7,879 nucleotides of DNA from a virus (Duplodnaviria; Heunggongvirae; Uroviricota; Caudoviricetes). The position numbers were made by a program. Of this stretch, positions 6,001 to 7,879 are shown piece by piece (position 1 is the first letter of the stretch; every line of letters begins with the position of its first letter). The DNA is taken from the IMG/VR virus record IMGVR_UViG_2648501338_000002, positions 1 through 7,879 of that record; one strand, 5' to 3'.

Positions 6001-7879
6001 ACTACGATTGGTTTGGTCGGGTCTGGAAGGATTTGCTGTACTGCGTGAATAGCGTTTTGCTGATGTGCTGGAGATCGAATTTCAAAGGTTAGTTTTTTCA
6101 TGACTCCCCTCTCCCCCAAATAAAAAGGCCTGCGATTACCAGCAGGCCTGTCATTAGCTCAGTGATGTAGATGGTCATCTTTTAACTCCATATACCGCCA
6201 ATACCCGTTTCATCGCGGCACTCTGGCGACACTCCTTAAAAATCAGGTTCGTGCTCACCTTTCCTTCCCGTTCTTCCCTGGTAGCAAACCGGTAATACAC
6301 CGTTCGCCAGACCTTACCTTCGATAACCAGAAGACCTGCCCGTGCCATTTTAGCTGCGGCCTGATTTATGCTGGTTACTGTTGCGCCTGTTAGCGCGGCA
6401 ACGTCCGGCGCACAGAAGCTATTATGCGTCCCCAGGTAATGAATAATTGCCTCTTTGCCCGTCATACACTTGCTCCTTTCAGTCCGAACTTAACTTTAAT
6501 TTCTGCGATCTTCGCCAGCGCCTGAACACGATTTAGAGGTCTGCCGCCCATGACAGGAAGTTGTTTTACTGGTTCAGGTATCGTCTCACCACGGTTAATT
6601 CGCGCTGTCATACAGGTCAGTTCATCGGCAGCCTTGCGTCGTAATTCCGCGTCAGTCAGCGCATTGGCCCGCATGTTCTGGTACAGGTTGGTAACCAGCC
6701 AGTAGTGCGCGTTCGATTTCCACGGATAAGACTCTGCATCCGGATACAGGCCTCGCTTCCGGCAATACTCGTAAACCATATCAACCAGCTCGCTGACGTT
6801 TGGCAGTCCGGCGATAACGGATGCTTCTTCCCGGCACCATGCAACAAACTGCCCGGGTGATGGAAGAAATGGTCGATTCTGCCGACGGGCTACGCGCATT
6901 CCTGCGTTAACCTGTTCCATCGAGGTGATCCCGTTTTCCCGGAAAGCCAGAACCCACTGGCGGCGGATTTCATTCAGTTCGTTCTGGTCCCGGTTAGCCA
7001 GACTCGCCGGGAAAGTTGCCAGTAACTGGCTGAACACACCGTTGATGATCTGCGCTACCTGTTGTACCTGCGGCTTTTCGTCGTACTGTTCCGGCATGTT
7101 GTTGGCGATTCGACGCATCTGCTCACGGTCAAAGTTAACCATCTGTGCGGCGATGTTTTTCATAAATCCACCCCGTAAATCCAGTCAGTGTTTGTCAGGT
7201 CGAGTTTTGGTTTGCTGGCTGTCACGCCTGCCTGTTGCTTGTTACGGTTGATTTCGAGCTGGGTCCACTTGTCGCGGAGTTTGGCCGGGCTCAGCACGTT
7301 ACCGGACCAGAAGTTGTCCTGGCATGCCCAGCGGAACAGCACGCACATGTCGCGGTGGTTACGTCCGTCACGTTCACGCATCAGGCGGATATCGTTAGCC
7401 CACCCAGCAAAATTCGGTTTTCTGGCTGATGGTGCGATGGTCTTCACCATGTCAAACATCCACTCTGCGGCGGTCAGGTCTTCTGCTGTTCCCCACTTGC
7501 TGCCGCTCTGAATTGCAGCATCCGGTTTAACCACAGAAAGATCGTTTTCTGGCTGGTCAGAGGATTCGCCAGAATTCTCGGACGAATAATCTTTTCTTTT
7601 TTCTTTTGTAATAGTGTCTTTTGTGTCCCCCTGTTTTGAGGGATAGCAATCCCCTAATTTGAGGGATGTTTTATCCCTCGTTTTAGGGGATTTTCCCTCG
7701 TTTTGAGGGATGTCCCTCATTTTAGGGGAACCTCCCTCGTTTTGAGGGATGCACCATTCTGAGGTGTTTTTATTTGGTCCAAACTGAACCGCCCCGGGTT
7801 TCCTGGAGAGTGTTTTATCTGTGAACTCAGGCTGCCAGATCATCGTTTCCGATGGAAGCATAATAAGCTTTTTCTGCTT

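What the first reader, a model, noticed from the sequence alone, without database searches (positions are those of the whole stretch)
7575..7750. Origin with six iterons inside O, versus four in lambda
Six approx. 18-bp iterons at 19-24 bp spacing are followed by an AT-rich tract, all inside the O reading frame. Lambda itself has four iterons, whereas six have been reported for Stx-phage replication regions, as I recall. The extra iterons add a repeated IPQNEG(G/K)SPK unit to the O linker. The in-window N-terminal sequence of O also differs from lambda while the C-terminal domain is lambda-like, which implies lambda-type P interaction with a possibly distinct iteron-binding specificity.
Basis: partly seen in the sequence, partly recalled or inferred. 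Interest (0 to 1): 0.35.

Follow-up and report, generated by a model that had tools for sequence, protein, structure and literature searches.

The report
Known six-iteron Stx-phage-type origin, IS-cut O
This is the ordinary, already described six-repeat replication origin of 933W-type (Shiga-toxin-phage-type) lambdoid prophages, and the "unusual" start of its initiator gene is the end of an IS629/IS1203 insertion sequence that has cut the gene in two.

Summary
Six lambda-type iterons lie on the minus strand at 7733-7749, 7713-7729, 7694-7710, 7674-7690, 7650-7666 and 7626-7643. Their spacing is 20, 19, 20, 24 and 23 bp. An 80% A+T tract (7585-7624) follows, and everything lies inside the O reading frame.

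[quoted passage not shown] Lambda lacks one 39-bp unit (two iterons, 13 amino acids) and differs at one base of iteron 3 and one base after the AT-rich tract. This arrangement is already known. The 933W GenBank record annotates "ori iteron 1-6", and Kozlowska et al. 2020 (PMC7466680) studied it biochemically. In IMG/VR the six-iteron junction is about as common as the four-iteron junction.

Window 7785-7879 is not a divergent O N-terminus. It is the last 95 bp of IS629/IS1203, 100% identical to an annotated copy. Similarity to an intact O stops exactly at 7784, within codon 105. The iterons are lambda-type, and the closest intact relative (E. coli C325, 100% identical over 1-7784) has a lambda-type N-terminal domain.

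So O is interrupted, and the prophage probably cannot initiate replication unless O is supplied in trans. Novelty: already known. Interest: low.

The parts
7733..7749 (-). Iteron, first in O orientation and farthest from the AT tract (TCCCTCAAAACGAGGGA). It is one of the two identical copies that the literature / 1''.
   Evidence: identical to 933W; annotated 'ori iteron 1' in AF125520
7713..7729 (-). Iteron 1' (TCCCCTAAAATGAGGGA). Absent from lambda.
   Evidence: PMC7466680
7694..7710 (-). Iteron, third in O orientation (TCCCTCAAAACGAGGGA). Same sequence as lambda ITN1.
7674..7690 (-). Iteron 2 (TCCCCTAAAACGAGGGA). Same sequence as lambda ITN2.
7650..7666 (-). Iteron 3* (TCCCTCAAATTAGGGGA). 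One base differs from lambda ITN3 (G to A), as in 933W and P27.
   Evidence: PMC7466680
7626..7643 (-). Iteron 4 (TCCCTCAAAACAGGGGGA). Same sequence as lambda ITN4.
7713..7751 (-). 39-bp unit (two iterons, 13 codons: IPQNEGGSPKMRD) that lambda lacks. Its placement is ambiguous by one repeat unit because two iterons are identical. It is 90% identical to the neighbouring 39-bp unit.
   Evidence: alignment gap; repeat family D1; protein alignment
7585..7625 (-). AT-rich tract of the origin, the presumed unwinding region. It is identical to lambda and 933W.
   Evidence: 80% A+T over 7585-7624; GC minimum of 0.275; alignment
7160..7784 (-). Distal part of the replication initiator gene O, from the third base of codon 105 to the stop codon. 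It holds the iteron-encoded linker and the lambda-type C-terminal domain.
   Evidence: 98.6-99.4% identical to O of Stx phages over exactly this stretch
7785..7879 (-). Right end of IS629/IS1203 (IS3 family). The terminal inverted repeat begins TGAACCGCCCCGGG on the + strand at 7785. The transposase orfB C-terminus and its stop codon lie at 7827-7877. The element has the same orientation as O and runs off the window.
   Evidence: 100% identical to the last 95 bp of the annotated 1310-bp IS1203 in L001; translation; homology to intact O ends at 7784
6462..7163 (-). Replication gene P, the partner of the O C-terminal domain. Its start overlaps the O stop codon.
   Evidence: 97% identical to lambda P; Pfam Phage_lambda_P

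Best explanation
Window 7585-7749 is the ori-lambda-type origin of a 933W-like lambdoid prophage, in the six-iteron form typical of Stx phages.

Mechanism, inferred from the lambda, P27 and 933W work. Dimers of the phage initiator O bind the 17-18-bp inverted-repeat iterons through the N-terminal domain and wrap them into an O-some. The adjacent AT-rich tract is then destabilised. The C-terminal domain of O recruits the P-DnaB complex. Published footprints show strong binding to the four iterons next to the AT tract. The two extra distal iterons are weakly bound but were required for plasmid establishment. Their coding consequence is a 13-residue extension of the O linker.

The six-iteron form arose as a tandem duplication of a 39-bp two-iteron unit. 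The two copies are now 90% identical.

In this particular genome an IS629/IS1203 element has inserted into O at 7784/7785, within codon 105 and 35 bp upstream of the first iteron. It separates the DNA-binding N-terminal domain and the pR side from the origin and the rest of O. Full-length O therefore cannot be made. The origin is intact in sequence but is probably silent unless a resident or incoming rep-lambda-type phage supplies O in trans.

Shown here: the sequence anatomy, its identity to 933W, the IS boundary, and the truncation. Inferred: O binding, the replication defect, and rescue in trans.
For: Iteron positions and significance: (six sites; no match in any of 200 shuffles).

Identity to 933W over the iterons and AT tract, and the 39-bp gap in lambda. 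The 13-aa insertion, with the rest of the protein lambda-like.

The 933W record annotates ori iterons 1-6 inside O. Published biochemistry and genetics of the six-iteron origin: PMC7466680.

IMG/VR holds 49 contigs with the exact six-iteron junction and 58 with the exact lambda four-iteron junction. Loci anchored on the AT tract carry 4 or 6 iterons, with rare 8, 5 and 1.

IS end: 316 phage records match only query positions 96-720, which is window 7160-7784. E. coli C325 matches window 1-7784 at 100% and then diverges. Window 7785-7879 equals the last 95 bp of the 1310-bp IS1203 of L001. The transposase C-terminus is read.

Pfam Phage_rep_O covers residues 22-115 of the intact O and gives no hit on the in-window ORF. 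A genuine O-specificity swap (L196) changes the iterons as well, and its homology to the window starts at the edge of iteron 4.
Against: The left IS junction and the O N-terminal fragment lie outside the window. That the IS is complete, that it has a target-site duplication, and that the N-terminal part of O still exists in this genome are therefore all unverified.

The exact junction was found in no other sequence: 5,426 complete E. coli genomes, the GTDB species representatives, JGI metagenomes and the fetched viral loci. An assembly misjoin at a repeat cannot be formally excluded.

No experiment here shows O binding or a replication defect.

An in-frame ATG inside the IS (7859-7861) could give a 233-aa protein that lacks the DNA-binding domain. 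Whether it is expressed is unknown, and the simple scan found no sigma-70-like promoter in 7100-7879.
Confidence: 0.87

Rival explanations
1. One reading: O here is a natural hybrid. It has a novel N-terminal DNA-binding domain, and so possibly a new iteron specificity, fused to a lambda-type C-terminal domain.
For: The in-frame translation upstream of FGPNK (KQKKLIMLPSETMIWQPEFTDKTLSRKPGAVQ) has no similarity to lambda O. Such hybrids do exist among lambdoid phages. L196 is one: it has other iterons, another N-terminal domain, and the same C-terminal domain and P.
Against: The divergent 95 bp are 100% identical to the end of IS1203 and begin exactly at the IS terminal repeat. The iterons are lambda/933W-type to the base, whereas in the real hybrid L196 the iterons change together with the N-terminal domain. 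The in-window ORF has no Phage_rep_O domain. The 100%-identical relative C325 has a lambda-type N-terminal domain.
Confidence: 0.01
2. The IS/O junction is an assembly artefact, for example a short-read contig misjoined or ended at a multicopy IS629. In that case O and the origin are intact and functional in the real genome, as in E. coli C325.
For: The exact junction is absent from every collection searched. The window ends only 95 bp into the IS. C325 carries the same 7784 bp with an intact O.
Against: The break falls precisely at the last base of the IS inverted repeat. That is what transposition produces, and a random misjoin would not be expected to land there. IS1203 is annotated inside O in other complete genomes. 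One case was checked at sequence level: strain 124 has a 1310-bp IS with a GTT target duplication 77 bp upstream of this site. Short-read contigs that end in an IS normally do flank a real copy.
Confidence: 0.08
3. The orphaned six-iteron origin, possibly together with a truncated N-terminal O fragment, has been co-opted as a decoy. It would titrate or poison the O protein of superinfecting or co-resident rep-lambda-type (Stx) phages and give replication-level exclusion.
For: Ectopic ori-lambda copies on plasmids block lambda replication initiation (PMC4488673). The 'inhibition phenotype' against rep-lambda phages requires the iterons but not the AT tract (PMC3349717). The reconstructed N-terminal fragment would keep residues 1-106 of O.
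Against: Those effects were obtained with multicopy plasmids, and in PMC3349717 they also required oop transcription. Here there is a single chromosomal copy. The oop/cII side lies outside the window, separated from the origin by the IS. Nothing suggests selection, because the insertion is unique to this sequence.
Confidence: 0.04

Closest known systems
Replication origin of Stx phages 933W and P27 (six iterons: 1, 1', 1'', 2, 3*, 4); GenBank AF125520; Nejman et al. 2009; Kozlowska et al. 2020 (PMC7466680)
   Same: It has the same six iterons, spacers and AT-rich tract, base for base, as 933W. It has the same 13-residue insertion in O. The gene order O-P-ren-nin-Q-tRNAs is the same, and 98.6-99.4% DNA identity extends over 7160-7784.
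   Different: O is interrupted by IS629/IS1203 at codon 105. In-window O carries I112T (residue numbering of the 312-aa O) and keeps the lambda residue (Ser) where 933W has Gly near the C-terminus; 933W's L37I lies in the part of O outside the window. No stx genes follow the tRNAs; a TerB-family ORF sits there instead.
Bacteriophage lambda ori (ITN1-4 plus a 38-bp AT-rich tract inside gene O; NC_001416 39034-39160)
   Same: The iteron consensus, the AT-rich tract and the position inside O are the same. The C-terminal domain of O is the same, and P is 97% identical. The presumed mechanism is therefore the same: O-some formation, unwinding, and P-DnaB recruitment.
   Different: Lambda lacks the 39-bp two-iteron unit. 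It has G instead of A at one position of iteron 3, and one further base differs just after the AT tract.
IS629 / IS1203 (IS3 family, 1310 bp), abundant in E. coli O157:H7 and other STEC
   Same: The terminal 95 bp are identical to an annotated IS1203, including the inverted repeat and the orfB C-terminus.
   Different: Only the right end lies in the window. This insertion site in O was not found in any other sequence searched.
Other lambdoid O/iteron specificity modules (example: L196, with five TTACCYGAATCAGGTAA iterons)
   Same: The architecture is the same: iterons inside the initiator gene, followed by an A-rich tract and a lambda-type C-terminal domain, with an identical P.
   Different: The iteron sequence and the N-terminal domain are different. 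This is what a real specificity swap looks like, and it is not what the window shows.

Membership tests
ori-lambda-type origin (iterons plus AT-rich tract inside the lambdoid O gene) | Array of at least four 17-19-bp imperfect inverted-repeat iterons that match the lambda ITN sequences | tested here: met
   There are six sites. Four are identical or nearly identical to lambda ITN1-4. The motif is found nowhere else in the window and in none of 200 shuffles.
ori-lambda-type origin (iterons plus AT-rich tract inside the lambdoid O gene) | AT-rich tract directly after the last iteron, on the promoter-distal side | tested here: met
   7585-7624 is 80% A+T and is identical to lambda.
ori-lambda-type origin (iterons plus AT-rich tract inside the lambdoid O gene) | Located within the O reading frame, between the parts that code for the N-terminal and C-terminal domains, with P immediately downstream | tested here: met
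   The frame is open through the iterons to the O stop at 7160. P lies at 6462-7163.
ori-lambda-type origin (iterons plus AT-rich tract inside the lambdoid O gene) | Intact cognate initiator (Phage_rep_O N-terminal domain joined to the C-terminal domain) encoded in cis | tested here: not met
   O is cut at codon 105 by IS629/IS1203. The in-window ORF has no Pfam hit, whereas intact C325 O has Phage_rep_O at residues 22-115. This bears on function in this genome, not on what the origin is.
ori-lambda-type origin (iterons plus AT-rich tract inside the lambdoid O gene) | O protein binds the iterons and the fragment supports O/P-dependent replication | not testable with these tools
   This was shown for the identical 933W and P27 sequences in PMC7466680, not for this locus.
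Stx-phage (933W/P27) six-iteron variant | Two additional iterons (a 39-bp unit) upstream of the lambda-type four, giving 13 extra residues in O | tested here: met
   identical to 933W
Stx-phage (933W/P27) six-iteron variant | Iteron 3* (one-base difference from lambda ITN3) | tested here: met
   TCCCTCAAATTAGGGGA here against TCCCTCAAATTGGGGGA in lambda (PMC7466680)
Stx-phage (933W/P27) six-iteron variant | Carried by a Shiga-toxin-converting phage (stx downstream of Q and the tRNAs) | tested here: not met
   Downstream of the tRNAs the window has a TerB-family ORF (518-1033) and no stx. The 100%-identical C325 prophage is annotated the same way. The origin type is thus not confined to stx-carrying prophages.
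IS629/IS1203 (IS3 family) | Terminal inverted repeat TGAACCGCCCCGG... and the orfB 3' end | tested here: met
   95 of 95 bases are identical to the end of the annotated IS1203 in L001. The orfB C-terminus is AEKAYYASIGNDDLAA*.
IS629/IS1203 (IS3 family) | Full-length 1310-bp element flanked by a 3-bp target-site duplication | not testable with these tools
   The rest of the IS and its left junction lie beyond the window end. The copy in strain 124 is 1310 bp long and has a GTT duplication.

The most novel reading that the evidence does not exclude
An IS-orphaned six-iteron origin in a stx-less, 933W-like cryptic prophage works as a chromosomal decoy. It would act together with a truncated O(1-106) DNA-binding fragment, and it would interfere with replication initiation of incoming or co-resident Stx phages that use the same O/iteron specificity, so modulating Stx-phage induction and toxin output in the host.
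Probability: 0.04. Interest if true: 0.45.

Novelty: already known. Interest (0 to 1): 0.1.

Why it matters
It matters little beyond correct annotation. The six-iteron origin is a described feature of Stx-phage replication modules.

Three small additions come from this check:

- The same origin occurs in a stx-negative 933W-like prophage.
- Iteron number in this family is polymorphic (4 and 6 are common; 8, 5 and 1 were also seen). This fits unequal recombination between the repeats.
- In this genome the initiator gene is broken by IS629/IS1203, so the prophage is probably replication-defective. That is relevant to predicting whether it is inducible.

The case also shows how an IS end that stays in frame can pass for a divergent protein N-terminus.

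Tried and rejected
1. My first iteron pattern (TCCCYYNNNNNNRRGGGA) was one base out of register and found only some sites. I replaced it with TCCCYYAAWWYRRGGGA and a regular-expression scan.

2. I looked for the exact IS/O junction to identify the source and recover the left junction. It was not found in 5,426 complete E. coli genomes, in GTDB representative genomes, in JGI metagenomes or in the fetched viral loci. An exact-protein look-up of the 233-aa hybrid ORF also found nothing.

3. The hit to E. coli strain 124 at first looked like the same insertion, because its O remnant is also annotated as 702 nt. Sequence inspection shows its IS sits 77 bp further upstream.

4. I looked up contigs that encode the identical P protein, hoping to find the source contig. 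They carry an intact six-iteron O, or in L196 a different O module. None has the IS.

5. A promoter scan of 7100-7879, run to see whether something could drive the truncated ORF, found nothing. The three terminator-like hits are on the + strand, two of them within or beside the iterons and one in the IS end; the count is barely above what the shuffles give.

6. A literature search for IS629 inside phage O genes returned nothing.

7. My frame choice was wrong, so I disregard it. The DNA identity covers the same point.

Full report
**The observation.** The gene in question lies on the minus strand. Its frame is open from the window end to a stop codon at 7160-7162. In gene orientation, six 17-18-bp imperfect palindromes follow one another:

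| Iteron (order in O) | Window coordinates | Sequence |
|---|---|---|
| 1st | 7733-7749 | TCCCTCAAAACGAGGGA |
| 2nd | 7713-7729 | TCCCCTAAAATGAGGGA |
| 3rd | 7694-7710 | TCCCTCAAAACGAGGGA |
| 4th | 7674-7690 | TCCCCTAAAACGAGGGA |
| 5th | 7650-7666 | TCCCTCAAATTAGGGGA |
| 6th | 7626-7643 | TCCCTCAAAACAGGGGGA |

Start-to-start spacing is 20, 19, 20, 24 and 23 bp. A degenerate motif with up to one mismatch hits only these six sites in the window and matched in none of 200 dinucleotide-preserving shuffles. Directly after the last iteron comes a tract of 80% A+T (7585-7624); the window as a whole is 51% A+T. The peptide encoded across the iterons contains the repeat IPQNEGGSPKMRD / IPQNEGKSPKTRD.

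**What it is.** I aligned the region with lambda (NC_001416), with 933W (AF125520) and with the closest complete-genome relative. [quoted passage not shown] Lambda differs in three ways: it lacks one 39-bp unit (two iterons), it has one other base in iteron 3, and it has one other base after the AT tract.

At protein level O matches lambda O from residue 106 to the end, apart from I112T and the 13-residue insertion. P, which starts at the O stop codon, is 97% identical to lambda P. The lambda record annotates four iterons and the 933W record annotates "ori iteron 1" to "ori iteron 6".

The 39-bp unit is 90% identical to its neighbour (family D1). The six-iteron form is therefore a diverged tandem duplication of a two-iteron unit.

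**Already known.** Kozlowska et al. 2020 (PMC7466680) describe exactly this arrangement in Stx phages P27 and 933W. They name the iterons 1, 1', 1'', 2, 3* and 4, and they describe the 13 extra residues in O. They credit the first description to Nejman et al. 2009. Their main results:

- O of lambda, P27 and 933W binds each single iteron.
- On the whole origin only the four iterons next to the AT tract are strongly protected.
- Mutating iteron 1 or iteron 1' abolished transformation by a P27-derived plasmid.
- The AT tract is dispensable for O-some formation.

**How common it is.** In IMG/VR, 49 contigs carry the exact six-iteron junction and 58 carry the exact lambda-type four-iteron junction. 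Across all 173 origins that I could anchor on the AT tract, 117 have four iterons and 53 have six. These numbers are not an unbiased frequency, because 107 of the loci were fetched with patterns that presuppose four or six iterons.

Single cases with other numbers also exist:

- L020 has eight iterons, through a third copy of the 39-bp unit.
- L182 has five, through a 24-bp duplication of iteron 3.
- L149 has one.

They still show that iteron number is polymorphic in this family.

**The N-terminal claim.** All 316 matching phage records align only to window 7160-7784. The E. coli C325 chromosome matches window 1-7784 at 100% and then diverges. E. coli hits that cover the remaining 95 bp annotate it as "IS3-like element IS1203 family transposase".

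Window 7785-7879 is identical, 95 of 95 bases, to the last 95 bp of the 1310-bp IS1203 in E. coli strain 124. It starts on the + strand with the IS terminal repeat TGAACCGCCCCGGG. In a different frame from O it contains the transposase C-terminus AEKAYYASIGNDDLAA followed by a stop codon.

The O frame happens to stay open for 158 nt into the IS. That is why the junction reads like a divergent protein.

The break is at the third base of codon 105 of the 312-codon O, 35 bp upstream of the first iteron. Pfam's Phage_rep_O domain spans residues 22-115 of the intact C325 protein and gives no hit on the in-window ORF. The intact relative has a lambda-type N-terminal domain; in the first 105 residues only G17E differs from lambda.

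A real specificity swap is seen in L196. That locus has the same P and the same O C-terminal domain, but five TTACCYGAATCAGGTAA iterons and another N-terminal domain. Its homology to the window begins at 7626, the edge of iteron 4. Iterons and N-terminal domain travel together, and the window's iterons are lambda-type. Nothing here indicates a new iteron-binding specificity.

**Consequences in this genome (inferred).** Full-length O cannot be made. I reconstructed the insertion with the strain-124 IS and an assumed 3-bp duplication. The upstream fragment would then encode O residues 1-106 plus 15 IS-derived residues (121 aa in all), and an ATG inside the IS (7859-7861) could give a 233-aa protein that lacks the DNA-binding domain. 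The scan found no sigma-70-like promoter in 7100-7879. The origin is intact, but it is separated from pR by the IS. The prophage is most likely unable to initiate its own replication unless another rep-lambda-type phage supplies O.

Two caveats apply. The left junction lies outside the window. The exact junction was also found nowhere else, so an assembly artefact cannot be formally excluded. Against an artefact, the break coincides with the last base of the IS inverted repeat. IS1203 is also annotated in O in other complete genomes, and I verified one case at sequence level: strain 124 has a GTT duplication 77 bp upstream of this site.

**A more adventurous reading.** The orphaned iterons might act as a decoy against related phages. 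This has precedent only for multicopy plasmids (PMC4488673; PMC3349717), and I rate it unlikely.

**Context.** The window is the O-P-ren-nin-Q-tRNA segment of a 933W-like prophage. At the position where 933W carries stx2 it has a TerB-family ORF. The six-iteron origin is thus not restricted to toxin-converting phages.

**Verdict.** The feature is real and correctly described, and it is already known. The specific inference of a novel O specificity is refuted. Interest is low.

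Noticed in passing
window 94-155 (+) and 156-349 (-): Rfam gathering-score matches to AgvB (anti-GcvB sRNA, 96.5 bits) and STnc100 (145.6 bits), next to each other at the late-region end of the window.
   Followed up: no
window 518-1033 (-), 1118-1367 (-), 1809-2282 (-): Downstream of Q and three tRNA genes, where 933W-type Stx phages carry stx, there is a TerB-family ORF (Pfam TerB, E-value 1e-15). In the 100%-identical prophage of E. coli C325 this ORF is followed by a DUF3927 gene. The prophage is therefore a stx-less 933W-like one.
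   Followed up: partly
window 1292-1367 (-): ARAGORN calls this tRNA Met (anticodon CAT), while RefSeq annotates the identical gene in C325 as tRNA-Ile. The RefSeq call presumably assumes an ileX/ileZ-type CAT anticodon read as Ile after lysidine modification.
   Followed up: no
L020 about 10289; L182 about 603 (-); L149 about 7931: Iteron copy-number variants of the same origin occur in IMG/VR. L020 has eight iterons (a third copy of the 39-bp unit), L182 has five (a 24-bp duplication of iteron 3), and L149 has one.
   Followed up: partly
L196 3200-3560: A different O/iteron module, with five TTACCYGAATCAGGTAA repeats and another N-terminal domain, is joined to the same AT-rich region, C-terminal domain and P. 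Homology to the window starts at window 7626. No O gene was called there, and an integrase lies just upstream, so this may be a deleted prophage.
   Followed up: partly
L001 1786-3095 (E. coli strain 124): An independent IS1203 insertion lies in the same O gene, 77 bp upstream of the site in the window. It is 1310 bp long and flanked by a GTT duplication. The 3 bp that flank the IS in the window are also GTT. Two further genomes (H42, H43) are annotated with an IS3-family or IS1203 transposase next to a cut O. I did not check those at sequence level.
   Followed up: partly
window 1408-1521 (-) and about 5063-5140 (-): Gene remnants. By coordinate transfer from the identical C325 annotation these are a DNA-methyltransferase fragment downstream of Q, between Q and the tRNA genes, and a NinE fragment, both flagged as pseudogenes there.
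   Followed up: no
window 3032-3760 (-) and 3906-4973 (-): The nin region carries a KilAC/Rha-type antirepressor ORF and a P63C-domain ORF (Pfam P63C, E-value 1e-23). In O157:H7 strain F7349 the antirepressor gene is itself cut by another IS1203 copy.
   Followed up: no
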